Notes under the pieces: generated by a model | Databases searched by the model: none | Told to the model about the DNA's origin: nothing | The model's input: only the letters and a program-made list of their open reading frames with translations | Translations under genes and position numbers: made by a program | Part shown: one piece after another, positions 4,898 through 40,612 of the stretch | How positions within the stretch are numbered: position 1 is the first letter of the stretch | Layout of the letters: the number at the start of each line of letters is the position of its first letter | Assembly (NCBI GenBank): GCA_023898465.1 | Contig: CP060223.1 | Location: 576,001 to 640,000, forward strand | Source of the DNA: Candidatus Nomurabacteria bacterium | GTDB taxonomy: Bacteria; Patescibacteriota; Patescibacteriia; HK-STAS-PATE-3 | Reading direction: 5' to 3' | DNA length: 64,000 nt

Positions 4898-6268
4898 TTA
4901 TGACCTCAGCCACTCTCTCCCCTGTCGTACGAGCAGCTCTTCTGCTTCCTCGGGGTCCTGGAGAAGCTCACGTACCACGCGCTCAAGTCGCACTGATTGC
5001 GAACCCTTCACCAATACGATGTCATGCAGACCTACTACCGAGCGGAGAAAAACCACTGCAGCTTTTGCGTCGGGAAACTCGTGCACTTCCTCCTCAGGAA
5101 AACCTGCTTCACGTGCTGCAGCTGCGATCTTGGCACCCAGCTTGCCAACGGTCACGAGAATATCGGCATGTCCTTTTACCGTCTTTCCAATTTCAGCATG
5201 TGCGTCATCAGTGTATTCCCCCAGCTCAGCCATATCACCTAACACCACAATACGGCGGAAAAAAGTAGCGGATTCAATGGTCTCAGATTTTTTTAATGGT
5301 CCAGTTGTAAGGTGATGTCGCAAATCCTTGGACAAATCACTGATCAACTGAAGTGCCGCAGTCACTGCACGTGGCGAGGCATTATATGAATCATCAATCA
5401 GGAGAGAACGCTTCTGACCTTTGAGTAAACGAGTGCGGCCACGTGGCGGGACGAAATGACGAAAGGCCTCAGCGATGTCGCGCAGATCCATACCATAGGC
5501 AAGTGCCACGCATGTTGCAGCTAGGGCGCTGGAAATAATTGCCTGCCCTACACTTCCTCGCAGCTCCAATGTTGCACTCTTATCCTCAAAATGTACTACG
5601 CAGCGCATGCCCTCGATGCTGGGAAACGCTTCAAATGATTCCTGCTTCCCATACAAGAAACCTACCTCGGTTGCCTGAACGTCAGCTTCTGCGTGAATGC
5701 CATAGCTCAGCACCCGCGACTTGGTCAGTTTATGAAATTCTAAGACTCGCTCATCATCTGCATTGAGAATGGTGTAGCCATCATCTTCTGTGCTTTTTGC
5801 CAGGACCGACTTTTCCTCTGCTACCTTCTCAACTGATCCAAAAAATTCCGTGTGCACTGGAGCAACTGCGGTGACAACACTTACCCGTGGTCGCGCAATG
5901 CTACAGAGATAGCTAATATCGCCCGGATGATCAGCGCCCATTTCTAGTATCAAGACTTCAGGGAAAGGACGACGTTGCAAAAGTAGCTTTGTCGCTTTGA
6001 TAAAAATTCCTAGCCAGGCAAAAGGGTTCCGACCGCCGCTCTTCGCGTCAATAATCGCCAGAGGTAAGCCAAGCTCGTTATTCAAGTTACCCTGACTCCG
6101 TCGCACCGCAAAAGCCCCGCTCATGACAGTGAAAATTGCTTCTTTGGTACTGGTTTTTCCAACGCTGCCCGTAATCGCCACCACATCGGGTTGATACTTA
6201 GCTAGGATTTTCCGTGCATACCAGGCTAGGATGCGCTGCACATACTGCTGGAGCTTTGAGATAGACAT
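4898..6268 (-). CDS. murF: UDP-N-acetylmuramoyl-tripeptide--D-alanyl-D-alanine ligase
   Basis: Mur ligase P-loop VVAITGSVGKTSTKE. Middle and C-terminal Mur ligase domains (LLIDDSYNASP). 456 aa. Confidence 0.9.
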   Translation of the reverse strand: MSISKLQQYVQRILAWYARKILAKYQPDVVAITGSVGKTSTKEAIFTVMSGAFAVRRSQGNLNNELGLPLAIIDAKSGGRNPFAWLGIFIKATKLLLQRRPFPEVLILEMGADHPGDISYLCSIARPRVSVVTAVAPVHTEFFGSVEKVAEEKSVLAKSTEDDGYTILNADDERVLEFHKLTKSRVLSYGIHAEADVQATEVGFLYGKQESFEAFPSIEGMRCVVHFEDKSATLELRGSVGQAIISSALAATCVALAYGMDLRDIAEAFRHFVPPRGRTRLLKGQKRSLLIDDSYNASPRAVTAALQLISDLSKDLRHHLTTGPLKKSETIESATFFRRIVVLGDMAELGEYTDDAHAEIGKTVKGHADILVTVGKLGAKIAAAAREAGFPEEEVHEFPDAKAAVVFLRSVVGLHDIVLVKGSQSVRLERVVRELLQDPEEAEELLVRQGREWLRS

Positions 6269-8578: not shown

Positions 8579-10336
8579 TTACTCCCCAACTACACTCGGC
8601 GGAACTTCGAAGTAATTCAAGAGGAACTTCGCAATATCGCCGAATAAAGGCGCAGCAGTGCTCTCGGCAAATTTCACGTCCTTAGGATCCACAATCTTGG
8701 TCACCATGACAAACTTCGGGTCCTCGACCGGACCGAAACCGGCGAAGGAGCCAATGGTGCGATTAGGATCATAGCCCGGACCGTCAGTGCGTGGAATCTG
8801 CGCCGTACCTGTTTTACCGGCAATGTAATATCCTGGCACAGCCGCTCTCGTACCGTGACCATTCTTCACTACATTTACGAGCATGGCTGATACTGTGGTT
8901 GAGGTTTTTGGATCCAACACTTGTCGTACAGCTGTGGGGTGAGTTTTCACATGGAAGTCATTTGGCTTCACAATTTCATCAACGATGTATGGTTTATACA
9001 AAGTTCCCCCATTTGCAATAGCTGCATAGGCCGCGGCCAGCTGCAAAGGCGTGGCGGTGATACCTTGACCAAAAGAAGCGGTGTCAACGTAAATGTCACG
9101 TCCGCTGGCCAGCTCTCCGAGATTACCAGCCGACTCATTACCAAGCTCAACACCAGTCTGCTCACCAAAACCAAAGCGCTTCACATAGTCATAAAAAACG
9201 TCGTTCCCGGCCTGTTGCGCAGCAAAAATTGCTCCGGTGTTTAGAGATTTTTCCAACACCTCGGTCATTGTTTGCGTACCGTATGTTTTATCGTCGGAAT
9301 TCCGAATCGTGAAGCCGCCAACCTCTACACTTCCTTCATCAACATAAGTGGTTTCCGGTGTAACCTTGCCAGTATCAACCGCGGTCGCCATGGTAATGGG
9401 CTTGAAAATCGATCCAGGCTCATAAGGACTAATGGCCGGATTAAGAAAAACATCCAAGTCAGTCACCTCGTTGTAATGATTCGGATCAAAGTCAGGATAA
9501 CCGCACATGGCCAATATGGCACCGCTATCTGGATCAAGTATAACCACCGCCCCACTCTCAGCCCCGTGCTTCAGTACGGCTTCTTGAAGCTTCGTGCACA
9601 CAGTGTATTCCAGGGTACGGTCAATGGTAAGGATGAGATCATCACCATCTTTAGCATCTTGGATAAATCGATCGCCGACGGTAATCCAACGACCGGCCGC
9701 GTCGCGCTCAGCTTGCAAATAACCCTGTTGACCAGCCAGCTCTTCATCAAAATAACCTTCCAGTCCATACTGTCCTTTTTTCACATCCTCTGACATGCCA
9801 AGGAAACCAAGGATTTGGCTGGCCAGACTTCCCTCTGGATAAAGGCGTCCCTTTTCACTAATGAAAGAGATGCCATCAATCTCTAATGCCTCAATTTTTT
9901 CTTTGGTAGCAACGCTTATATTATGCTCAATCGGTTCATAGACATCGTCGCTTTTTGATAATCGAGCAAGTAATGTTTCTTTATCAAGCGTGATGAAACT
10001 TTCAAGCTTTTCGGTCACATCCTCCGGATCTTCAATTCGCTTTGGCACAGCATATACTAGGAAGCGTTCCTCATTGGTAGCCAGTGGAAAAAGCTGCCCA
10101 TCTGAATAGCGATCGTGCGCGTAAATTTCTCCACGATCTGGTAAAAGCCGTTGCTCAATTTCGTGCTGACCAGAGGCCAGCGCTTCGTAGAACCCGTGCG
10201 CTAAAACCTGCAGCGTGAATAGACGAACTACTAAAATACTCGAAAAGCCAAATAACAAAATAAGCAGCACGGTGAGACGATCAAGTCGCCATCTTGGCTG
10301 CTGTTGTCGTGGTCGATTGCGTCCGTACCGCGTCAT
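8579..10336 (-). CDS. ftsI: Penicillin-binding protein 2/FtsI-like class B transpeptidase
   Basis: N-terminal TM anchor. Transpeptidase motifs SIFKP (SxxK), SLN and KTG(T). 585 aa. Located downstream of ftsL. Confidence 0.85.
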   Translation of the reverse strand: MTRYGRNRPRQQQPRWRLDRLTVLLILLFGFSSILVVRLFTLQVLAHGFYEALASGQHEIEQRLLPDRGEIYAHDRYSDGQLFPLATNEERFLVYAVPKRIEDPEDVTEKLESFITLDKETLLARLSKSDDVYEPIEHNISVATKEKIEALEIDGISFISEKGRLYPEGSLASQILGFLGMSEDVKKGQYGLEGYFDEELAGQQGYLQAERDAAGRWITVGDRFIQDAKDGDDLILTIDRTLEYTVCTKLQEAVLKHGAESGAVVILDPDSGAILAMCGYPDFDPNHYNEVTDLDVFLNPAISPYEPGSIFKPITMATAVDTGKVTPETTYVDEGSVEVGGFTIRNSDDKTYGTQTMTEVLEKSLNTGAIFAAQQAGNDVFYDYVKRFGFGEQTGVELGNESAGNLGELASGRDIYVDTASFGQGITATPLQLAAAYAAIANGGTLYKPYIVDEIVKPNDFHVKTHPTAVRQVLDPKTSTTVSAMLVNVVKNGHGTRAAVPGYYIAGKTGTAQIPRTDGPGYDPNRTIGSFAGFGPVEDPKFVMVTKIVDPKDVKFAESTAAPLFGDIAKFLLNYFEVPPSVVGE

Positions 10337-19280: not shown

Positions 19281-19632
19281 AGCTCACGTATCCTAGCATA
19301 TCCCTATCTCAACAGAAAATAGAAAGGGGCAACTCCTCAGAGTCACCCCATGAATCTCAGCAGCGGCGACCGGATCCGTAATAGGATTCCTTTTCAGCTC
19401 GAGTCGCCTGGCGGCAATGATCGAAGGGGTGCAAACTGCACTCCAACCAGACACCTCAACTGCCAGTGAGTTGCATGGTCCCCTTGCAATCCTTGACCGG
19501 GCACTGATCACCCCTCTTCACTTCATCGAAGTTGGGCTTCCCTGCGTCCTCTTGAACAGCCGCGTTTCCCATGATCCCCTCCTCAGAACGTGAGTATTGA
19601 GAACAAGTGAACAAAAAAACACTAGCACGAGA

Positions 19633-19678
19633 TGAAAAAAAAGAAAAAGCCTCAGTGCAAACGCATGAGGCTTGGTAA
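19633..19678 (-). terminator. Intrinsic terminator (minus strand). Hairpin AGCCTCATGCGTTTGCACTGAGGCT followed by TTTTTCTTTTTTTT.
   Basis: Plus strand shows aaaaaaaagaaaaagcctcagtgcaaacgcatgaggct. Read on the minus strand the U-tract follows the 8-bp stem. Confidence 0.6.
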
Positions 19679-19679
19679 A

Positions 19680-20440
19680 GGTTTGACCCGGGACAGTGCG
19701 CACGCAAACGTGCTGCCAGGGACACCGCCCCGGGTCCGGGCGTGGCTCTCAGCCAAAAAAGGATCGTATACAGATCCTAGCGCGAGCGCTTCGTTAGGTC
19801 AAATAAAGAAAAAGGCCCCGTCACTACTACATTGGATGTGTAGCGTGACGGGGCCTGCGCCGGCGCGTAGGAGCGGCGGCGTGAATCGGCCTATCAGCGA
19901 ACCCGGCGGGCGTTTGCAGCGAGTGCTGTTCCCAATGGGTCGACCGCGGATGGCCGAAGTGTGCGGACCGGAGAGGGCGCGTCCCGGCGACAAAAAGTGT
20001 CGTCGAGGCGAAACCGACTAGCCGGTCGCGATGAATGTAATCAGAGATCAAGCCGTCAAAGGACGGTATGCTTCGTTCGAGCTGATGAGACCCTGCATCA
20101 GTGACAGGTGGTCACAACCGGGTCTTCCGATGAAAAGCTGTGACCATCGACTCCCACTTAGCGTTCACGCCGTTGATGCTGCGCATCATCATTGGTGCGC
20201 CGCTTCATGGGGCGAGTTAGGGCAGGACCGATGGTCCTACCCGCAAAGCTAGGTCGGATGTCCGTGGGTCATTCGTTCCTCCTTCTGCCCCTAACGCGTG
20301 TCAGGGGCGGGGTCCGCGCCGTCCGTCAGGCGCGTCGCCGGCCGTCGAGGGCGATCGTCGCGATGGTCGTCGTCGAATCGTAATAGGCGCTGCGGAGCGA
20401 AGTCGGGGGTCCATGGAGATTCATCTCGGACTCCTTTCGG
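19680..20440. other. GC-rich (about 60-65%) non-coding island with no credible ORF. Candidate structured ncRNA or degraded foreign DNA.
   Basis: Composition contrasts with the 45-48% GC neighbours. All ORFs here are short, overlapping and R/P/A-rich. Minus-strand terminator-like hairpins at 19814-19855 and 19761-19777 and a promoter-like TTGACC-17-TAGGAT (minus) at 19802-19774. Confidence 0.4.
19801..19855 (-). terminator. Intrinsic terminator (minus strand). GGCCCCGTCAC...GTGACGGGGCC followed by TTTTTCTTTATTT.
   Basis: 11-bp perfect stem read directly. The T-tract lies on the minus strand (plus-strand aaataaagaaaaa at 19801-19813). Confidence 0.6.
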
Positions 20441-20638
20441 TTCGCGGTGATATCGTCTGGCGACACCACCATCCACGTACTCTCTCAAACATCTCTGGTT
20501 GTTGAGGTGCAAGTTGGGTCGCTTCTCGCTAACCAACGGGAAGACACTAGCACAGCTCAAGAAATATGTCAACCCCAGGGGCTCAATAAATTTTCTGCAA
20601 ACAAAAATAAAATCAAAAAAGTCCAATAAAAAGCCCTC

Positions 20639-20666
20639 TTGACATTCGGTTTTTCTTCGGTATATC
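20639..20666 (+). promoter_or_regulatory. lexA promoter (TTGACA-16-TATATC) with the 16-mer TTCGGTTTTTCTTCGG occupying the spacer. Candidate LexA operator.
   Basis: cTTGACAtTTCGGTTTTTCTTCGGTATATCatagtcacATG. The identical 16-mer recurs at 21321-21336. Confidence 0.5.
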
Positions 20667-20674
20667 ATAGTCAC

Positions 20675-21301
20675 ATGACCGTTGTACTACCAAAGAAGAA
20701 ACAAGAGCTCCTGAAATACCTTCAGGAATATATTACTGAACATAGCTACGCCCCTACCCTGACCGAGATAGCGAAAAAGTTTGGCGTGTCCTCACTTGCT
20801 ACGATTCACGAGCATCTCGCCTTTTTAGAGGAGAACGGCTTTATCCGTCGTGATAAGCAACAAGCCCGTGGAATTACCCTGCTCAATCCAGAGGATAACG
20901 CTACGCAAAGTGAAAGCGCCTTGAATACAATAGAATTACCAATCGTTGGGGTTATCACCGCAGGTGCACCAATTGAGGCTATTGAGGATCGCGACCGCAC
21001 GCTTTCCGTCCCCCAGGAAATCGCTGGCCGTAAAAACGCCTATGTATTAAAGGTGCGCGGCGATTCTATGATTGAAAGTCTCATTGCTGACGGTGATTTC
21101 GTTGTTGTAGAAAAAACTGAATACGCAAAAGATGGTGACACTGTTGTAGCAATGCTAGAGGACGGCACCGCTACCTTAAAGAAATTCTTTAAGCATAAGA
21201 GCTATATTCGCCTACAACCAGCTAACAAGGCATATGCACCAATTAAAGTACCATCCGTAGTTATTCAAGGACGCGTACTTGGTGTCATGCGCAAAATGTA
21301 A
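20675..21301 (+). CDS. lexA: LexA repressor (S24 peptidase family)
   Basis: N-terminal wHTH (LTEIAKKFGVSSLATIHEHLAFLEENGFI). C-terminal S24 domain with GDSM (Ser nucleophile) and a later Lys. Start moved to the internal Met at 20675 because the promoter lies inside the longer annotated ORF. Confidence 0.85.
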   Translation: MTVVLPKKKQELLKYLQEYITEHSYAPTLTEIAKKFGVSSLATIHEHLAFLEENGFIRRDKQQARGITLLNPEDNATQSESALNTIELPIVGVITAGAPIEAIEDRDRTLSVPQEIAGRKNAYVLKVRGDSMIESLIADGDFVVVEKTEYAKDGDTVVAMLEDGTATLKKFFKHKSYIRLQPANKAYAPIKVPSVVIQGRVLGVMRKM

Positions 21302-21320: not shown

Positions 21321-21336
21321 TTCGGTTTTTCTTCGG
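21321..21336 (+). promoter_or_regulatory. Second copy of TTCGGTTTTTCTTCGG, 3 nt upstream of the Y-family polymerase start codon
   Basis: tatcTTCGGTTTTTCTTCGGcctATG. Exact 16/16 identity to the lexA promoter element. Confidence 0.45.
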
Positions 21337-21339
21337 CCT

Positions 21340-22527
21340 ATGAAACCCTCCCCTCTTATCAAGCGTTATATCCACGTCCGTTTAAATAGTTTTCTCGCTA
21401 GTATTGTTGAGAGAGAAAACCCCAAACTACAGGGTCGGCCTATTGTAATAAGCGAAATGCATAATAATGAAGAACGCGTGCTGAGTTGTAATATCCCAGC
21501 AAAAAAGCTAGGCATCCAAAAGGGCGATACAATTTTACAGGCAAAGAAGCGCTGTACTTGGGTGGCGGTATTTCCTAGTGACATTGAATTAGCAAAAACC
21601 TATGCGAAAGAGTTTATTGCCCTACTCTGTCGATTTTCCACTAAGGTCTATCCGCATAATCGTTTAGACGAAGCCTACATTGAGCTAGACGTCAGTGGAA
21701 TTGCTGCAAGCTCTCCAGAGGAGTTTGCGGCAACTATCCAGCGAAGCATTAAGGTACAACTTGGTTTAAATGCTAGCATTGGAATTGCACGCACTCGTTC
21801 GGTTGCCTGGAGCGCTGCACTGCATAAGCAGCCCGAAGGGATTACCAGTGTGCCTATTGGTAGTGAGCGCGCTTTTCTTTACCCTCTTCCACTTACTCAG
21901 CTCTACTCGCTGGGACAGCGCTCACGCGAATACCTCCTCTCGCATGGTATTCGGACTATTGGCCAACTAGCTGCTTGCTCCAGTAATTGGTTAGTGGAAC
22001 AGTTTGGCAGTGCAGGATATGAGCTACTTCAGTTAGGTCATGGCCAGGATATAAAAGAAGTGAAAACGCCAACTTTACAGAAGTCTATTTCGCGCTCACT
22101 TCGCTTCGAGGCTCCAACAAGTAATCCTGCATTAATTGAAACTACAGTAGCTCACTTAAGTGAAAAGGCTCTTCGTACGCTCCAAAAGCAGGGTCGACGT
22201 GCTGAGACCGTGGTGCTGCAAGTGACCGACATTTACGGTCGCTCACACCAAAGTCATGCAAAACTTTCTAGCTCACGAAACTCATTCCAAAAAGGACTTT
22301 ACAGTGTTTTTCGTCATCTTACCGCTCAGGTGAGCGCTATTCGTTCTATTGCCGTGCAGCTGCACACGTTGCTAGAAACACCGCAGGAGCAACCAAATCG
22401 TGTATGGCAAAGTCAGCCGGTACAATCAGCTATTTTAGGTCTAGAGTGGAGATCGGGTCAGCGGGCCAGAAAAGCAGCAAGATCAGGCAGCTTGGTGCAG
22501 TTACCACTACTCGGTATGAGCGCTTAG
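21340..22527 (+). CDS. Y-family DNA polymerase homolog (DinB/ImuB-like) lacking the first catalytic Asp motif
   Basis: N-terminus YIHVRLNSFLASIVERENPKLQGRPIVIS aligns to the DinB IHVDMDCFFAAVE...GKPVAV, but DMD is replaced by RLN. The second acidic motif is retained (LDEAYIELD). 395 aa. Confidence 0.65.
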   Translation: MKPSPLIKRYIHVRLNSFLASIVERENPKLQGRPIVISEMHNNEERVLSCNIPAKKLGIQKGDTILQAKKRCTWVAVFPSDIELAKTYAKEFIALLCRFSTKVYPHNRLDEAYIELDVSGIAASSPEEFAATIQRSIKVQLGLNASIGIARTRSVAWSAALHKQPEGITSVPIGSERAFLYPLPLTQLYSLGQRSREYLLSHGIRTIGQLAACSSNWLVEQFGSAGYELLQLGHGQDIKEVKTPTLQKSISRSLRFEAPTSNPALIETTVAHLSEKALRTLQKQGRRAETVVLQVTDIYGRSHQSHAKLSSSRNSFQKGLYSVFRHLTAQVSAIRSIAVQLHTLLETPQEQPNRVWQSQPVQSAILGLEWRSGQRARKAARSGSLVQLPLLGMSA

Positions 22528-22925
22528 CGTTTTTTGGGAAGTATTATGTTTGGCTCCCCACTATAGCGTGGAGTGAGCGCTTGCTTCTTTGCTAAGCGAG
22601 CCAATCCGCTATGCAATGTTTCGGGATCTACACCATCTACGGTAGCGATCGGAATTTTATGCACATAACCTAAAGACAAGGCAACGCTCATACATGCGCG
22701 CATGAGCGAGAAGCGACCAACCCCTTCAGTAACAAAAATTCCTGAGAGTGTTTTTGGTTCTACTTTTGCTTTTTTTAAAAGCGCTTCAACTAACTTTAGT
22801 GCGCTGGCGCTTTTTTCGCGAGACAGCAAGAAAGAATCCTTATAGATAATCTTCTGACCATCGTAAAGACTAGCAATGATATATTCAGACTGACTGCTGT
22901 CGAGTACTAGATACTTTTTCTTCAT
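22524..22925 (-). CDS. tsaB: tRNA threonylcarbamoyladenosine biosynthesis protein TsaB (YeaZ-like, N-terminal domain only)
   Basis: YLVLDSSQSEYIIASLYDGQ...SGIFVTEGVGRFSLMRACMSVALSLGYVHKIPIATV matches the TsaB/Kae1-fold N-terminus (LAIDTS..., GPGSFTGLRIG...). About 134 aa. Confidence 0.6.
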   Translation of the reverse strand: MKKKYLVLDSSQSEYIIASLYDGQKIIYKDSFLLSREKSASALKLVEALLKKAKVEPKTLSGIFVTEGVGRFSLMRACMSVALSLGYVHKIPIATVDGVDPETLHSGLARLAKKQALTPRYSGEPNIILPKKR

Positions 22926-23577
22926 GCGCTTTAACTGCATCATCTTTCTTTATCTCTGTCTTTTGTCGCATCGTTACACCTAAACGATCAATCATAACTA
23001 TGCGTTTATTTTCCAGAATATGGAAAATGAAGCGATCAGTTAAATCATTGCGATACTGAAACTCACGGGCCGAGAAAACAGTATAGCGTAATTGCGAGCT
23101 AACTTCCTTTTGCAATACCCCAAGCAACTTCTTTAACTTTGCTTTATTTATCTTACCTACAAGTAAAACATCTGTGAGCGTATTTGGAATTCCGGTAAAT
23201 ACTCCAGTAAGTACTAATAGTTTAACTGAACCTATCTTACTAATCGCATCCAGGAAGCTTTTTTGCAGAACTACCTGCGACTTAAGGAAGAGAGATTGCA
23301 GCTCACTGTAGAGAACAAAATCGGTGTTCACGCGGTAGTATTTTTTCCTATCTTCCACCTTTGACTCCAGTATATCTAATCGCTCCAAATGCTCTAGCTC
23401 CCGTCTGATTGAGTTCATGTGCTCATCTAAGGTGCGACAAATTTCCCGCACAAAGTACCATTCCTCTGGATGTAGGAAGAAAAGCCGTAGTAGCTTGGCT
23501 CGAGTTCTTGATCCAAATATGTGTTCAAGCATGGTTTTGACTGACTTGTCGGGAATAAGCGTTTTTAGTATAGTCAA
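22885..23577 (-). CDS. Winged-helix (ArsR/MarR-like) transcriptional regulator with C-terminal extension
   Basis: N-terminus LEHIFGSRTRAKLLRLFFLHPEEWYFVREICRTLDEHMNSIRRELEHLERLDIL is a typical wHTH. Confidence 0.5.
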   Translation of the reverse strand: MTILKTLIPDKSVKTMLEHIFGSRTRAKLLRLFFLHPEEWYFVREICRTLDEHMNSIRRELEHLERLDILESKVEDRKKYYRVNTDFVLYSELQSLFLKSQVVLQKSFLDAISKIGSVKLLVLTGVFTGIPNTLTDVLLVGKINKAKLKKLLGVLQKEVSSQLRYTVFSAREFQYRNDLTDRFIFHILENKRIVMIDRLGVTMRQKTEIKKDDAVKAHEEKVSSTRQQSV

Positions 23578-23641: not shown

Positions 23642-25879
23642 ATGGCGCAGCTATCACATACACTAGAAAAAGTACTACTTTGCGACCCGGAGCGAAATAC
23701 CTCTTTGGTCCATATTCATGTACCAGAAAGCACCCCTGTCGAATTCCGTACACTGGGGCAGCTTTTCTTTATTGTAGAAATCGATCGGCAGCTCCCAATT
23801 AACCAAGAGCTGGTAGGTGTTGTCGAGGAAGAAATGCAAAAAGCCTACTATCAGACTGCTCAGCTCAGAGTAGAGCCGGCCTTTGAACAAGCTCTACAGC
23901 ACGTGAACGAACAACTCTACCAACTTATTGAGGGTGGCGTTACTGAATGGCTAGAGCACTTCAATATTGTGGTCGGTATAGTGAAGGATGATCTCATCCT
24001 TTTTGCCCATCTCGGCAATATCAGCGCAGTGCTTATACATGGAGGTCGCGTAACTGACATCATTGCGAACGCGGGACGTGAGCGTGAAAAAGTGAATCCT
24101 TTAAAAATCTTTTCAACGGTAGTATCGGGCACAATTACCGATGGCGACCACATCCTCTTCTATACTCCTAGCGTCCTTGACTATCTCTCGCAGGAAAAAT
24201 TAAAGAGAATTGTGCTTGAACGAACACCGGACGAAGCCGTGCATCAGCTTGATGTGCTACTTGATGAGGCTTCACACCACGCCGCTTTTGGGCTCCTGTT
24301 ATTACACTCGACTCGAGAGCGAGAAACCGTACATCTGCAAACCACTCGGACCACTACCCCACGCGCTCCGATGCATACACAGTCCTCAATGGAGCACTTG
24401 ATCGCCCGAGAACGTTCGACTGATCGCTTGCTTGCACCGTCCTTCTGGTTAACGGCACGACAAATCACCAGCGCAATTACGCAAAATATTCGATCAACAT
24501 TTGGACGCATTCGATCAACGCAGAAAACAACTCGTCGACCCTACTTAGGCACGGAACATAGCTCCCCTGCTTCAGAGTATGCTATGCCGCAGCGTGAGAG
24601 CTCCGGCACAAAAGCTGGATTACAATCAATTGCTCGTATATCGACTCGTAGCGGTAAAGCAGTAGGTCGATCATTGCAAAGTACTTTTGCCAAGCGACAA
24701 CAATGGTTTGATTTCTTGAAGGCGGTACCGAGCGGGCTAGGTCGAGTAACGAACCGTTTTGTACGAAACTTTTTAGCATGGAGCTTTACTCGAAAAGCAA
24801 TTTTCTTTGCAATTATCATTGTGCTCTTCTTTTTTGCCCAGAGCATCGTGAGTATTGGTCGGCGCGGAGCAGTAGAAGAAGCTCAACGACAAGAAACTGA
24901 GGCGGTGGCAGCAATTGAAGAAAAGACTTTTCAAGCCGAGGCATCACTTAGCTACGAAGATGAGGCACGAGCCAATACCCTACTCGATGAAGCCGAGGCC
25001 CTGATTGCTGCGCTAGAAAATAAAGACACTGACGCGGTGCGTAGTGCACAGAATGAAATAAATACCTTACGCGAACAAGCGAACCGAGTAGTACGAATCA
25101 GCGAGCCAACAACGCTGGCCGATCTTAGTCAGCAAGACGGCTTTACCTCTACTCGCTTTATCAACGCGCTAGCAGATACCCTTTATCTGCCAGACCAGAA
25201 TGGTTCGAAGATGTGGGCCGTTGATGGTAATGGCAACGTTGTAGGGATTGATACAGGAATAGATGGTCTAGGGGCGCCAACAATGTCGGCCCTCCAGGGC
25301 GGTCAAAGCATTATTGTGTATCACGACAACGGTGCGGTCTATGCAATAAACGCTGCAAATACCATTCAACTTCTCAGCTTTACTCCCCCGTCGGAAAGTA
25401 AAGACTTTGTCGCGATGTCTACGTATCAATCGCGAGTATACATTCTCGACAAACTAAATAATCAAATTTATCGCTCACTCCAGGGTAGTGCTGCTATTGG
25501 GACTGCAAGTGAATGGCTCGATGCTAACTATGATCTTTCTCAAAGCGTCGATCTAGCAGTTGATGGCACAATCTATGTTGCTGATGAATCTGGTGCAGTG
25601 CGAGAATTCTCTCAAGGAACTCAAGACGACTTCACTCTGCAAGACATCACACCGGCCGTGAATCACATTGATCGAATTTGGACTGATGCTGAGGCAAACA
25701 ATCTGTACATCCTTGATCGTAATGAAAAGCGTTTACTAGTCTTCACGAAGAATGGTCGACTCCGACAGCAATACACCTCGGAGGCTTGGGATGATCTGAG
25801 GGCTATGAGTATAGATGAGGCGAATGATATCGCCTATCTCCTCAGCGGTACTAAAATATATACACTCGAACTACAGTAA
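23642..25879 (+). CDS. Large membrane protein. N-terminal PP2C/SpoIIE-like phosphatase-like domain, a central TM helix, and a C-terminal beta-propeller-like (NHL/YVTN-type) repeat region.
   Basis: 745 aa. Central TM FFAIIIVLFFFAQSIV. C-terminal repeated motifs (IYVADESGAV, LYILDRNEKRLLVF). The N-terminal domain assignment is tentative. Confidence 0.4.
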   Translation: MAQLSHTLEKVLLCDPERNTSLVHIHVPESTPVEFRTLGQLFFIVEIDRQLPINQELVGVVEEEMQKAYYQTAQLRVEPAFEQALQHVNEQLYQLIEGGVTEWLEHFNIVVGIVKDDLILFAHLGNISAVLIHGGRVTDIIANAGREREKVNPLKIFSTVVSGTITDGDHILFYTPSVLDYLSQEKLKRIVLERTPDEAVHQLDVLLDEASHHAAFGLLLLHSTRERETVHLQTTRTTTPRAPMHTQSSMEHLIARERSTDRLLAPSFWLTARQITSAITQNIRSTFGRIRSTQKTTRRPYLGTEHSSPASEYAMPQRESSGTKAGLQSIARISTRSGKAVGRSLQSTFAKRQQWFDFLKAVPSGLGRVTNRFVRNFLAWSFTRKAIFFAIIIVLFFFAQSIVSIGRRGAVEEAQRQETEAVAAIEEKTFQAEASLSYEDEARANTLLDEAEALIAALENKDTDAVRSAQNEINTLREQANRVVRISEPTTLADLSQQDGFTSTRFINALADTLYLPDQNGSKMWAVDGNGNVVGIDTGIDGLGAPTMSALQGGQSIIVYHDNGAVYAINAANTIQLLSFTPPSESKDFVAMSTYQSRVYILDKLNNQIYRSLQGSAAIGTASEWLDANYDLSQSVDLAVDGTIYVADESGAVREFSQGTQDDFTLQDITPAVNHIDRIWTDAEANNLYILDRNEKRLLVFTKNGRLRQQYTSEAWDDLRAMSIDEANDIAYLLSGTKIYTLELQ

Positions 25880-38498: not shown

Positions 38499-39284
38499 TT
38501 ACTTGTCTTCGGGCAGCTCATTTTTCTCGATTTTTTGGAGAATTTTTGCCCAGGGTAATTTTACCAAGGCATAAATCAAAAAAACGAAAAGAAGAAATAA
38601 AAATGCATTCATTATTACGCTGCCAAGGGAAATTTCTGTGCTAAATACCACATCATGAGCAAAAAGACCCAGAATCGCAATGCCTAGTCCTGCAAGAATC
38701 TTGCCAAAAAGCATGGCGGGTATCAGGTGCCAGAGTGGATAACGTATCATACCCAAGGGTAAAGTGAGCATATCATCGGGTAGAGGTAAACTAGCAAAAG
38801 CAACAATCAAGACTTGAGTTACTACAGGGCGACGATGCACAAAGGCTCTAATAGCCTGATAAGAAGCTGGTCTTTTCCTTTTAAATAGACTTGAGCCAGA
38901 CCACCCCACACCATAACTCACTAATTCGCCCAGGGTTGCCCCCAGGCCGGTCAAAATACCTAGCCAAAGTGGATGGAGACCAAAAGCGGCCAGGAAAAAA
39001 ACGACCGCCGCATACGGTAAAGGACTAAAAACAGTAATATTGCCAATTATGGAAACAATGAAGGTGCCGAGATATCCATACCGAATAGCAGCATCTTGCC
39101 AAGCCTCTGACCACTCAGCCACGCTTCTCTGTGTAGCTGGGTGGGTAAGGAAGAAAACGCTCGCCCCAACAATACAAAGAAAGGAAATTAGTAAAAACCA
39201 CTCTTCCGCGCCCCAGTGTTTTTCAAACACGCCGAAGATATAGCGCTGTTGCTTCTCAGGATTTTCCCTTTTTTCCTCGTCCAC
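38499..39284 (-). CDS. DedA/TVP38-family membrane protein
   Basis: Polytopic. VTT-like core (FSPLPYAAVVFFLAAFGLHPLWLGILTGLGATLGELVSYGVG). Confidence 0.5.
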   Translation of the reverse strand: MDEEKRENPEKQQRYIFGVFEKHWGAEEWFLLISFLCIVGASVFFLTHPATQRSVAEWSEAWQDAAIRYGYLGTFIVSIIGNITVFSPLPYAAVVFFLAAFGLHPLWLGILTGLGATLGELVSYGVGWSGSSLFKRKRPASYQAIRAFVHRRPVVTQVLIVAFASLPLPDDMLTLPLGMIRYPLWHLIPAMLFGKILAGLGIAILGLFAHDVVFSTEISLGSVIMNAFLFLLFVFLIYALVKLPWAKILQKIEKNELPEDK

Positions 39285-40560
39285 GCTTTTGTCGATAACT
39301 AATATAATAGCGACGACCGGCTAGGCGGGCTGGTAAATAACTTTGTTTCCCCTCTTCTGCATCATAGTCATGCGAGTATTTGTAATCACGTCCATAACCT
39401 AAATCTTTCATTAGACTGGTTGGCGCATTACGTAAGTGTAAAGGCACGGCCTCGTTCATACTCTCACGCACATCCTTTTGCGCACGTAATAATGCTTGAT
39501 AGGTACTATTATTCTTAGGGGCGAGAGCGAGCGCAATCGCACAATGCGAGAGATTAAGGGCGCATTCTGGCAAGCCAATGCTTTGAACTGCTTGAAAGGC
39601 GGCAATAGCCAGCGGCAACGCATTTGGATCAGCTAATGACACATCCTCGGAAGCAAAAATAACCATACGACGAGCAATGAAAAGTGGGTCCTGGCCGACT
39701 TCCAACATTCGCGCAAGCCAATAGACGGCTCCATCTGGATCAGACCCACGCATCGATTTAATAAAAGCAGAAATAATGTTGTAGTGTTCCTCGCCCTTTT
39801 TATCAAAAAGCAGATGTCGTTTTTGTATAGCACTTTGCACATGCGCTAAGGTGAGATGCCGCACTCCTTTTGCATCAGGCGCCGCAGTTTTGACGGCGAT
39901 CTCTAAGCTATTAAGCAGGGCGCGAGCATCTCCATTAGCTTCTCCGAGGAGGAAATCAACGGCCTTGGGTGCAAGTTTTGCCTTATACTCTCCATACCCT
40001 CGCAACTTATCACTCAGTGCACGTTTCAACAGCTTTGCTAAATCCTCAGGGCTATGTCGCTCTAAAACATATACCTGACATCGAGAAAGAAGCGGGGCAA
40101 TAATTTCGAAAGAGGGATTTTCGGTCGTGGCACCAATTAACACAATTTCACCATTTTCAACATGTGGCAAAAAAGCATCTTGCTGGGCTTTATTCCAGCG
40201 ATGAATTTCATCCACAAAAAGAATAGTCCGACGACCATGAAATCGCCAGTCATCGCCAGCTTGCTGAACCACTTTACGCAAATCAGCAATGCCCGAAGTA
40301 ACGGCAGACATCTGGATAAATTTTGCCTGAGTCTGCTCAGCAATCAATCGAGCGAGCGTGGTTTTACCCGACCCGGGCGGCCCCCAGAGAATCATGGAAT
40401 AGAGCTCGTCGTTCTGAATCGCCTGCCGTAGGGCCGCTTCCTCTCCGGCCACCTGCTCCTGACCTAGGAACTCAGTAAAGCTCTTTGGCCGCATCCTATC
40501 AGCTAAAGGAGCAGTTCGATCTCGCTCAGGTGCGCGTGCATTCGTAAATAAGTCTTCCAT
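39256..40560 (-). CDS. rarA: Replication-associated recombination protein A (AAA+ ATPase RarA/MgsA)
   Basis: [18 protein letters not shown] Walker A. Walker [21 protein letters not shown]. MgsA C-terminal helical domain. Confidence 0.85.
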
Positions 40561-40612
40561 AGTACAACCGAAGAATAGCCAAAAACAGCCTTCCTGGCAA
40601 CGCCTGCCTTAG

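What the first reader, a model, noticed from the sequence alone, without database searches (positions are those of the whole stretch)
21340..22527. LexA-linked Y-family polymerase lacks the first catalytic Asp motif (ImuB-like pseudo-polymerase)
The N-terminus aligns to DinB (YIHVRLNSFLASIVERENPKLQGRPIVIS against IHVDMDCFFAAVE...GKPVAV), but the metal-binding DMD is RLN. The second acidic motif is retained (LDEAYIELD). Loss of catalytic acidic residues is the hallmark of ImuB. ImuB normally acts in the LexA-regulated imuA-imuB-dnaE2 mutasome. No imuA or dnaE2 is adjacent here, so this may be a stand-alone accessory or inactive polymerase under SOS control.
Basis: partly seen in the sequence, partly recalled or inferred. 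Interest (0 to 1): 0.55.

Follow-up and report, generated by a model that had tools for sequence, protein, structure and literature searches.

The report
SOS-controlled dead DinB polymerase in Patescibacteria
A small uncultured (CPR/Patescibacteria) bacterium keeps, under tight DNA-damage (LexA) control, a well-conserved copy of the repair polymerase DinB whose catalytic site has been destroyed, so it probably acts as a non-catalytic clamp- or fork-binding factor; it is not an ImuB.

Summary
ORF 21340-22527 (+) encodes a 395-aa Y-family protein in which the DinB motif D-M-D reads R14-L15-N16, while D110-E111 are kept. The steric gate (L19), a triphosphate-binding Tyr (I52) and the triphosphate Lys (W157) are also lost.

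It is not ImuB. It scores 172-182 bits against DinBs over its full length, but only 37-50 bits, partial, against real ImuBs from imuA cassettes. It has no ImuB-C domain, and no imuA or dnaE2 lies within the 64 kb.

It belongs to a small Patescibacteria group that has lost the first Asp. The group sits at one conserved locus (lexA-polY, then convergent tsaB-like ... L7/L12-L10), next to an intact-looking DinB at the same locus. The polymerase was therefore inactivated in place. Purifying selection is strong (dN/dS about 0.08).

Two perfect 16-bp boxes, TTCGGTTTTTCTTCGG, lie in the lexA promoter spacer and 3 nt before the polY ATG. In metagenomes the same motif precedes lexA, imuA, iPolY-dnaE2, radical-SAM and rarA genes, so it is a LexA box.

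A C-terminal QLPLLG resembles the ImuB clamp motif QLPLWG. The likely role is an SOS-induced, non-catalytic clamp or primer-end binder. This is a new variant of the known inactive PolYs and of moderate interest.

The parts
20639..20668 (+). lexA-polY operon promoter: -35 TTGACA (20639-20644), 18-nt spacer, -10 TATCAT (20663-20668). The ATG follows 6 nt later, so the lexA mRNA is probably leaderless or nearly so.
   Evidence: Promoter scan gives 11 of 12 matches; sequence. The same layout occurs in L001, L002, L003, L046 and L047.
20645..20660 (+). LexA box 1, TTCGGTTTTTCTTCGG (direct repeat TTCGG-N6-TTCGG), filling the promoter spacer.
   Evidence: Exact 16-mer, PWM score 29.6 bits. It is conserved at the same place in relatives. 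In metagenomes the same motif precedes lexA, imuA-like, Y-family, radical-SAM and rarA genes.
20675..21301 (+). lexA, 208 aa from the ATG at 20675. It carries the Ala-Gly cleavage site (VITAG/APIEA), the GDSM serine and the TLKKF lysine.
   Evidence: TIGR00498 lexA scores 180.5 bits against a cut-off of 111. Pfam finds LexA_DNA_bind and Peptidase_S24. Translation; the start was inferred from orthologues.
21321..21336 (+). LexA box 2, an identical 16-mer ending 3 nt before the polY ATG, inside the 38-nt lexA-polY spacer.
   Evidence: A second box at this position is conserved in L001, L002, L003, L006, L007, L009, L046 and L047.
21340..22527 (+). polY: a DinB-derived Y-family pseudo-polymerase, 395 aa (NCBI: hypothetical protein H6760_02950, Candidatus Nomurabacteria bacterium).
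   Evidence: AF2 model has pLDDT 80 with a canonical fold over residues 9-346. Foldseek top hits in the PDB are DinB, Dpo4, Rev1 and Pol iota.
21373..21402 (+). Degenerate motif I, H12-VRLNSFLA-S21: R14 (21379-21381) replaces the catalytic Asp, N16 (21385-21387) replaces the second Asp, and L19 (21394-21396) replaces the steric gate.
21490..21504 (+). N51-IPA-K55 in place of the S-YEA-R triphosphate-binding motif. The Tyr position is hypervariable in the clade (2.5 bits of entropy).
21664..21675 (+). Retained motif III, L109-D110-E111-A112, invariant in the clade.
21808..21810 (+). W157 in place of the triphosphate-contacting Lys (E. coli K157, Dpo4 K159). The position is aromatic (W or F) in all 8 clade members.
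22390..22407 (+). Q351-PNRV-W356, at the position where sister DinBs carry the clamp motif (QTTLF, QLRLF). It is remodelled, with one extra residue and an invariant Trp.
22417..22482 (+). Predicted C-tail helix (residues 360-381), VQSAILGLEWRSG... It aligns with the RecA-NT-like motif of sister DinBs (IQQAVDTIRNRFG...). The assignment is tentative.
   Evidence: Pfam DUF4113 was not detected.
22498..22515 (+). Q387-LPLL-G392, a beta-clamp-binding-like hexapeptide 3 residues from the C-terminus.
   Evidence: M. tuberculosis ImuB has 352-QLPLWG-357. Variants are QLPLEY, QLPLTS, SLPF, SFPY and RFSF in 5 of the 7 other clade members.
40568..40583 (-). Possible weak third LexA box, TTTGGCTATTCTTCGG, 7 nt before the ATG of an MgsA/RarA gene (39256..40560, - strand).
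   Evidence: The PWM score is only 14.5 bits, but this is the only other site above 12 bits in the window. A perfect box precedes a rarA gene in metagenome locus L100.

Best explanation
SHOWN: ORF 21340-22527 is a descendant of DinB (Pol IV) that lost its catalytic site in place, at a chromosomal locus conserved across Patescibacteria: mraZ-mraW-PBP-mur ... lexA-polY, then convergent tsaB-like, HTH-like, a roughly 750-aa protein, L7/L12 and L10.

In its clade (8 cluster representatives, 35-72% identical) the first metal-binding Asp is Arg (Lys or Cys in two members). The steric gate is always Leu, the triphosphate Lys is Trp or Phe, and the triphosphate Tyr is free to vary. The fold, the D110-E111 pair, the thumb and the little finger are conserved, and dN/dS is about 0.08. 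The gene is therefore maintained for a function other than DNA synthesis.

The gene lies 38 nt behind lexA. It has one perfect LexA box in the spacer of the shared promoter and a second box 3 nt before its own ATG.

INFERRED MECHANISM: In undamaged cells LexA occupies both boxes. Box 1 blocks initiation. Box 2 acts as an internal roadblock, so basal lexA transcription does not read through into polY. After damage, RecA-stimulated LexA cleavage releases both.

The protein then binds stalled primer ends through the beta clamp, using the terminal QLPLLG and possibly the W356 motif. It may also bind RecA through the RecA-NT-like helix. It acts without catalysis, in one of two ways. It could be a brake that takes the clamp and primer terminus away from the replicase, as engineered E. 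coli Pol IV D8A does. Or it could be a hub that hands the end to another polymerase, as ImuB does for DnaE2.
For: Active-site loss: alignments to solved DinBs and to 265 relatives. E. coli Pol IV D8A, mutated at the same position, is polymerase-null (PMC4117773).

Conserved fold: AF2 pLDDT 80 and Foldseek matches to DinB/Dpo4 at E 1e-30.

Selection: 58 invariant positions across 8 members and dN/dS 0.08.

Inactivation in place: in the NJ tree the clade has 100% support, the wider first-Asp-lost group 92%, and its sister is the intact P0123. All of these sit at the same syntenic locus. NCBI names place the group in Patescibacteria.

LexA control: two 29.6-bit boxes, with box 1 inside a promoter matching 11 of 12 positions, conserved in 9 related loci. 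Among promoter-embedded metagenome hits to the motif, the downstream genes are LexA (8), ImuA-like (3), radical-SAM (3), Y-family (2) and RarA (1).

Partner motifs: QLPLLG against ImuB QLPLWG.

Precedent for a brake: Pol IV D8A still takes the clamp and primer end from Pol III and causes stronger pausing than wild type, and this depends on its clamp motif (PMC5643309).
Against: No biochemistry exists; inactivity is inferred from sequence alone. D110/E111 are invariant, and D16 is kept in 7 of 8 clade members, so some residual or altered chemistry cannot be formally excluded.

The terminal clamp-like motif is missing in 2 of 8 members (P0005, P0006), and the canonical internal motif is remodelled. 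The RecA-NT assignment rests on alignment only; Pfam DUF4113 gave no hit.

The roadblock role of box 2 is inference. The presence or absence of dnaE2, imuA or a second active Y-family polymerase elsewhere in the 1.08-Mb genome is unknown.

The NJ tree uses simple distances, and degenerate sequences can attract each other. Synteny, however, supports the orthology independently.
Confidence: 0.62

Rival explanations
1. ImuB-type hub of a split mutasome. The protein is inactive, and its job is to recruit a DnaE2-type or other error-prone polymerase encoded elsewhere in the genome, with RecA standing in for ImuA. It would then be a functional analogue of the iPolY-DnaE2-RecA complexes.
For: All iPolY types described so far work with DnaE2 (PMC6511836 and PMC12926913). 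The protein has a clamp motif almost identical to that of ImuB and a RecA-NT-like helix. A LexA-box-iPolY-DnaE2 operon under the same box type exists in locus L117.
Against: No ORF longer than 807 aa and no RecA-like or Pol III alpha domain was found among the 25 window ORFs scanned, which include the eight longest. No such gene appears in 13-21 kb around six orthologous loci. There is no ImuB-C domain, neither fused nor adjacent. The genomes are only about 1 Mb. The only other LexA-box candidate in the 64-kb window is at rarA.
Confidence: 0.2
2. It is still a polymerase or nucleotidyl-transferase with a non-canonical active site, for example D16/D110/E111 with R14 substituting for one metal, or with a different substrate.
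For: D110, E111 and, in most members, D16 are retained. The pocket residues R14, L19 and W157 are conserved rather than drifting, which suggests the pocket still matters.
Against: Substituting this Asp alone abolishes Pol IV activity (D8A). Three further dNTP ligands are lost as well, and the triphosphate Tyr position is hypervariable. The query itself has N16. The wider sister group carries S, K or C at the same site and shows further decay (E->Q, D->Y, K->Q/M/H).
Confidence: 0.06
3. It is a decaying relic with no function, persisting only because it sits in the lexA operon.
For: Catalytic residues are lost, and polY is absent after lexA in some related contigs (L162, L051).
Against: Full-length intact ORFs are present in all 17 inactive representatives. 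There are 58 invariant positions at 35-72% identity, and dN/dS is 0.08. A dedicated second LexA box is conserved in front of the gene.
Confidence: 0.04

Closest known systems
DinB / DNA polymerase IV (PolY-core), including lexA-dinB operons
   Same: The fold and domain order are the same. The best sequence matches are DinBs (E 1e-47 to NCBIfam DinB models; 172-182 bits to DinBs). The gene is orthologous by synteny to an intact-looking DinB (P0123). It has LexA control and C-tail motifs at the same positions.
   Different: The first catalytic Asp, the steric gate, the triphosphate Tyr and the triphosphate Lys are replaced. It fails every DinB equivalog cut-off.
E. coli Pol IV D8A (engineered polymerase-null mutant)
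   Same: The same residue is destroyed, with clamp-motif-dependent behaviour possible. D8A still displaces Pol III from the clamp and primer end and stalls synthesis.
   Different: This is a natural, lineage-wide and selected state, with extra pocket changes (R14, L19, W157). Its own behaviour is untested.
ImuB (ImuA-ImuB-DnaE2 mutasome)
   Same: It is a Y-family fold without polymerase chemistry, SOS-regulated, and its clamp motif QLPLLG resembles QLPLWG.
   Different: Similarity to real ImuBs is only 37-50 bits and partial. It keeps D110/E111 and has no ImuB-C domain. No imuA or dnaE2 is nearby. It has an independent origin from DinB.
Inactivated PolYs of DnaE2B/DnaE2X systems (scDinB2-like, gbDinB2-like, Kyrpidia-type; Timinskas & Venclovas 2019, 2026)
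   Same: It is a PolY-core-derived protein with a disrupted active site, and lexA is often in the operon. An example was recovered here: L117, with a LexA box, an iPolY (VNP for DxD) and a 1017-aa DnaE2-like protein.
   Different: No dnaE2 is in the operon or the neighbourhood. It occurs in a different lineage (Patescibacteria). The Asp is replaced by a conserved Arg, and a dedicated second LexA box precedes the gene.
Direct-repeat LexA boxes (GTTC-N7-GTTC of Alphaproteobacteria and Acidobacterium)
   Same: It is a direct repeat with an 11-bp period. When the variable base is G, the sequence contains (G)TTC-N7-GTTC. It sits in promoter spacers of lexA and SOS genes.
   Different: The core here is TTCGG-TTTTTN-TTCGG with a fixed T-run. 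I could not read Sanchez-Osuna et al. 2017 on the Patescibacteria SOS network, so I cannot say whether this box is already described.

Membership tests
DinB / Pol IV (active Y-family polymerase) | Palm-fingers-thumb-little-finger fold (IMS and IMS_C domains) | tested here: met
   Pfam IMS 1e-29 and IMS_C 4e-9. AF2 pLDDT 80. Foldseek to DinB/Dpo4 at E about 1e-30.
DinB / Pol IV (active Y-family polymerase) | Catalytic carboxylates D8, D103, E104 (E. coli numbering) | tested here: not met
   D8 is R14; D110/E111 are present. D8A is polymerase-null.
DinB / Pol IV (active Y-family polymerase) | Steric gate F13/Y12 and triphosphate ligands Y46, R49, K157 | tested here: not met
   L19, I52, K55 and W157. 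In 265 relatives these positions are F/Y in 250, Y in 249, R in 246 and K in 246.
DinB / Pol IV (active Y-family polymerase) | Score above the NCBIfam DinB equivalog cut-off | tested here: not met
   Best score is 162.6 bits against a cut-off of 256.
DinB / Pol IV (active Y-family polymerase) | Descent from, or orthology with, DinB | tested here: met
   It is sister to the intact P0123 at the same syntenic locus. It scores 172-182 bits to DinBs.
ImuB | Y-family domain lacking the catalytic acidic residues | tested here: inconclusive
   Only the first Asp is lost (plus N16 in the query); D110/E111 are invariant.
ImuB | Beta-clamp-binding motif | tested here: met
   387-QLPLLG-392 against ImuB 352-QLPLWG-357. 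This is sequence evidence only, and the motif is absent in 2 of 8 clade members.
ImuB | RecA-NT motif followed by the ImuB-C domain | tested here: not met
   The tail after the little finger is 48 aa, and the protein ends 3 residues after the clamp motif. The RecA-NT-like helix is only tentative, with no DUF4113 hit.
ImuB | Gene association with imuA/imuA' and dnaE2 | tested here: not met
   None was found among the 25 of the window's 74 ORFs (>=120 aa) scanned against Pfam, which include the eight longest, and no ORF exceeds 807 aa, so a roughly 1000-aa dnaE2 does not fit. A roughly 250-aa imuA-like gene among the unscanned ORFs is not excluded. Orthologous loci also show none. The rest of the 1.08-Mb genome could not be searched.
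ImuB | Sequence clustering with bona fide ImuBs | tested here: not met
   It scores 37-50 bits, partial, to four ImuB-like proteins from LexA-box and imuA contexts (L053, L108, L122, L134), against 141-182 bits to DinB-type proteins.
Inactivated PolY (iPolY) of DnaE2-based complexes | PolY-core-derived protein with a disrupted active site | tested here: met
Inactivated PolY (iPolY) of DnaE2-based complexes | Conserved association with DnaE2 (with or without ImuB-C) | not testable with these tools
   It is absent locally. A genome-wide search was not possible: the genome-contig scan did not recover this genome. Compare L117, where dnaE2 follows the iPolY.
SOS (LexA) regulon member | LexA operator at the promoter, and the same transcription unit as lexA | tested here: met
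   There are two perfect boxes, and no promoter or terminator lies in the 38-nt gap. The identity of the box is supported by the genes it precedes elsewhere.
SOS (LexA) regulon member | LexA binding and damage induction | not testable with these tools
   This needs EMSA or footprinting, and expression data.

The most novel reading that the evidence does not exclude
In this Patescibacteria lineage the SOS response may be reduced to little more than lexA plus a dead polymerase. On this reading the stand-alone, DnaE2-independent pseudo-DinB is the main SOS effector. It works purely by occupying the beta clamp and primer end (and perhaps RecA) to pause replication, and it is kept silent by a two-operator arrangement of promoter block plus intragenic roadblock. 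That would be a natural counterpart of the Pol IV D8A 'brake' and a new functional class of Y-family pseudoenzyme.
Probability: 0.28. Interest if true: 0.65.

Novelty: new variant of a known kind. Interest (0 to 1): 0.45.

Why it matters
Inactive Y-family homologues are known so far as adaptors for the mutagenic polymerase DnaE2 (ImuB, scDinB2, gbDinB2). Here a DinB was inactivated in place, inside a conserved lexA-dinB operon of ultra-small bacteria. It has been kept under strong purifying selection and double LexA control, with no partner polymerase in sight.

If it really acts alone, non-catalytic functions of translesion polymerases, such as clamp competition and fork braking, would be enough to be selected in nature. 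That would also give a simple system for studying them. So far such functions have been shown mainly with engineered E. coli mutants.

The work also yields a well-supported LexA box (TTCGGTTTTTNTTCGG). The box can be used to map SOS regulons in Patescibacteria and in several high-GC lineages.

Tried and rejected
- The genome-contig scan with the clade alignment returned only generic DinBs from other phyla. It found no clade member and not the source genome, so dnaE2 and imuA could not be sought genome-wide.
- The afdb50 fold library was unavailable.
- tblastn of the protein against plasmids, intended to fetch an annotated ImuB, gave only DinB, UmuC, MucB and UvrX hits. ImuB-like sequences were obtained later from the LexA-box metagenome hits.
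- A Pfam scan of the C-terminal tails for DUF4113 (the RecA-NT motif) gave no hit for any clade member, and only E = 0.13 for a Dehalococcoidia DinB tail. RecA binding therefore stays a hypothesis.
- The key paper on the Patescibacteria SOS network (PMID 28618189) is not held. Papers citing it gave no motif detail.
- A Biopython BLOSUM bootstrap run timed out and was replaced by a Kimura-distance NJ tree with 100 bootstraps.
- An internal promoter for polY was considered and rejected. No promoter-like site lies in the 38-nt gap, and box 2 ends 3 nt before the ATG.
- A mis-assigned start was considered and rejected. The ORF begins right after a stop codon, and the alignment starts at residue 8 against DinB residue 3.
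- For the GC-rich island, Rfam, tRNA/tmRNA, Pfam on its ORFs, plasmid blastn and comparison with all fetched loci all gave nothing.
Full report
**1. What is there**

The window is ordinary chromosome of a Patescibacteria (CPR) bacterium. Its genes include mur, PBP and mraW, ribosomal proteins L7/L12 and L10, tRNAs and transporters. The exact protein is in NCBI as 'hypothetical protein H6760_02950 [Candidatus Nomurabacteria bacterium]' on a 1,082,586-bp contig.

ORF 21340..22527 (+) encodes 395 aa and starts at the first start codon after a stop. It matches Pfam IMS (1e-29) and IMS_C. NCBIfam DinB models hit at up to 1e-47, but all scores are far below their cut-offs (162.6 against 256).

An AlphaFold model (pLDDT 80) gives the full Y-family fold for residues 9-346. 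The 48-aa tail is of low confidence and holds one helix at residues 360-381. Foldseek against the PDB returns DinB, Dpo4, Rev1 and Pol iota at E about 1e-30.

**2. The observation**

Alignments to solved DinBs, to 11 relatives and to 265 relatives agree on the following changes.

| E. coli DinB position | Residue here | State in the 265 relatives |
|---|---|---|
| D8 | R14 | D in 240 |
| D10 | N16 | N in 17 otherwise intact DinBs, so not diagnostic alone |
| F13 (steric gate) | L19 | F or Y in 250 |
| Y46 | I52 | Y in 249 |
| R49 | K55 | R in 246 |
| K157 | W157 | K in 246 |
| D103/E104 | D110/E111 | retained here, as in nearly all relatives |

E. coli Pol IV D8A, mutated at the same residue, is used as a polymerase-null control (PMC4117773).

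**3. It is a conserved family, not a one-off**

A word-indexed search found only five close homologues, at 40-42% identity, before dropping to about 32% for ordinary DinBs. A profile search of 1.84 billion representatives added two more (P0121, P0122).

All eight share these features:
- R at the first Asp, with K and C in two members.
- L at the steric gate.
- W or F at the triphosphate Lys.
- D-E retained.
- A hypervariable residue at the triphosphate Tyr (2.5 bits of entropy).

Fifty-eight positions are invariant. dN/dS between the two closest genes is 0.08, with dS near saturation. This is a selected protein, not a pseudogene.

**4. Origin**

In a bootstrapped NJ tree the clade has 100% support. 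It nests, at 92%, in a wider group that has also lost the first Asp (S or K there) and shows further decay. The sister of that group, at 77%, is P0123, which has every catalytic residue.

Gene neighbourhoods show that all of these occupy the same locus: lexA-polY, then a convergent tsaB-like gene, an HTH-like gene, a conserved protein of about 750 aa, and L7/L12-L10. mraZ-mraW-PBP-mur lie upstream. NCBI labels members of the wider group '[Patescibacteria group bacterium]'.

The simplest reading is a single inactivation, in place, of the LexA-operonic DinB in one Patescibacteria lineage. There is a caveat. The tree uses simple distances, and divergent sequences may attract each other. The synteny is independent support.

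**5. Not ImuB**

Real ImuB-like proteins were recovered from the LexA-box search described below. They sit next to RecA-like imuA genes, begin 'WRVACVRIPRFPIGAVW', and run from 442+ to 776 aa. The window protein scores only 37-50 bits against them, over partial stretches. It scores 141-182 bits, full length, against DinB-type proteins.

The protein ends three residues after its clamp-like motif, so there is no ImuB-C domain. The longest ORF in the window is 807 aa. No RecA-like or Pol III alpha domain was found among the ORFs scanned, nor around the orthologous loci.

Inactive PolYs other than ImuB are known, but they are described as partners of DnaE2 (PMC6511836 and PMC12926913). One such operon was recovered here for contrast. 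L117 carries a LexA box, a 385-aa iPolY with VNP in place of DxD, and a 1017-aa DnaE2-like protein.

**6. LexA control**

lexA (20675..21301) is a canonical cleavable LexA. Its promoter, TTGACA-18-TATCAT, matches 11 of 12 positions. The spacer holds TTCGGTTTTTCTTCGG (20645-20660).

An identical 16-mer lies at 21321-21336, ending 3 nt before the polY ATG. Both boxes are conserved at the same positions in relatives whose proteins are only about 30-40% identical.

Of 121 hits, 20 sit exactly between a TTG... element and a TAnnnT element. The genes behind these and a few similar hits are shown below.

| Downstream gene | Loci |
|---|---|
| LexA | 8 |
| RecA-like ImuA | 3 |
| SplB-like radical-SAM | 3 |
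| Y-family | 2 |
| MgsA/RarA | 1 |

This is the signature of a LexA box. It is related to the direct-repeat GTTC-N7-GTTC type.

In the window a PWM finds only the two perfect sites (29.6 bits) and one weak site (14.5 bits). The weak site is 7 nt before the rarA ATG.

No promoter or terminator lies between lexA and polY. Box 2 therefore sits inside the transcription unit. I infer that it acts as a roadblock that keeps polY tighter than lexA. This is not shown.

**7. Partner motifs**

Sister DinBs carry a clamp motif (QTTLF, QLRLF) followed by a RecA-NT-like motif (IQQAVDTIRNRFGF...). In the clade the first is remodelled to Q-x3-[LVP]-W with an invariant W356.

The helix of the second is recognisable (IQSALLGLQWR-G) but diverged. 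Pfam DUF4113 does not detect it.

A new terminal motif appears in 6 of 8 members. It reads QLPLLG in the query (residues 387-392), and QLPLEY, QLPLTS, SLPF, SFPY or RFSF in the others. It is close to the experimentally essential ImuB motif 352-QLPLWG-357 (PMC10421592).

**8. Mechanism**

These points are shown:
- The catalytic site is lost.
- The fold is conserved.
- Selection is purifying.
- The protein descends from DinB.
- The gene sits in a LexA-box architecture.

These points are inferred:
- The protein is induced by damage.
- It binds the clamp, and perhaps RecA and primer ends, and works without synthesis.

The best precedent is Pol IV D8A. It still takes the clamp and primer terminus from Pol III, gives stronger pausing than wild type, and needs its clamp motif to do so (PMC5643309).

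A hub role for another polymerase, ImuB-like, is the main rival. It cannot be excluded without the whole genome. Residual catalysis and a neutral relic are both unlikely.

**9. Verdict**

'Pseudo-polymerase under SOS control' is supported. 'ImuB-like' holds only as an analogy.

This is a new, lineage-specific variant of the known class of inactivated PolYs. It is notable for its in-place origin, its double LexA box and the apparent absence of a DnaE2 partner. Interest is moderate.

Noticed in passing
window 19290-20560 (core 19640-20460): A roughly 1.25-kb island with no credible ORF, at GC 55-67% against 40-48% in the flanks, lying between the uvrD/pcrA-like gene and lexA. It folds far better than shuffles (z = -8.7 on the + strand, -6.3 on the - strand). 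It shows no codon periodicity and has no Pfam, Rfam, tRNA/tmRNA or plasmid match. It has no counterpart in relatives, which have only 220-275 nt at this position. Several hairpin-plus-T-run sites lie on the - strand (19349-19326, 19778-19760, 19857-19811, 19675-19648). It may be a new large structured RNA or a non-coding insertion.
   Followed up: partly
window 40568-40583 (-), upstream of 39256..40560 (-): A weak LexA-box-like site, TTTGGCTATTCTTCGG, 7 nt before the ATG of an MgsA/RarA AAA+ gene. It overlaps a TTGCCA-17-TATTCT promoter-like element that I read by eye. A perfect box precedes rarA in metagenome locus L100. rarA may therefore belong to this SOS regulon.
   Followed up: partly
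L046 ~9261-9269, L047 ~9298-9306, L010 ~6125-6133; also L011, L051, L056, L089, L123, L141, L145, L162: A perfect DnaA-box 9-mer (TTATCCACA or its complement) lies 12-16 nt upstream of the LexA box, just 5' of the -35, in 11 of the 12 LexA boxes (of 143 examined) that carry the 9-mer within 45 nt. Chance is about 0.0003 per site. Most of these loci are Patescibacteria-like lexA promoters. The box is not present in the window. It suggests DnaA input into the SOS operon.
   Followed up: partly
L089 (motif at 1301; ORF of 525 aa): A LexA (DNA-binding plus S24 peptidase) fused in frame to a C-5 cytosine DNA methyltransferase, behind a LexA box. The fusion is unusual and could also be a missed stop or frameshift.
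   Followed up: no
L162 2944-3330 and L051 (- strand) 2188-2532: A conserved 114-aa hydrophobic-N-terminus protein (M..SLLQLTLAITPAIIAS...) with no Pfam match sits between the LexA-boxed promoter and lexA in two low-GC contigs. It is a candidate small SOS-induced membrane protein. No polY follows lexA there.
   Followed up: no
L117 258-4602 (- strand): A high-GC (0.70) contig carries the same LexA box, a 385-aa inactive PolY (VNP for DxD, QLSLF clamp motif, RecA-NT-like tail) and a 1017-aa DnaE2-like protein. This is a textbook iPolY-DnaE2 operon and a useful contrast to the window.
   Followed up: partly
window 20663-20677: The -10 box of the lexA promoter ends 6 nt before the lexA ATG, so the lexA-polY mRNA is probably leaderless or nearly so. 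Relatives have 25-30-nt leaders.
   Followed up: no
window 23642-25879 (+): A 745-aa protein with no Pfam match. Its position next to the operon is conserved (746-774 aa in L001, L002, L003, L010, L046 and L047). It is a lineage-wide protein of unknown function.
   Followed up: no
window 22524-22943 (-): A short (139 aa) TsaD/TsaB-family protein, convergent with polY and overlapping its stop codon by 4 nt. It matches only positions 26-88 of the Pfam model. The arrangement is conserved in relatives.
   Followed up: no
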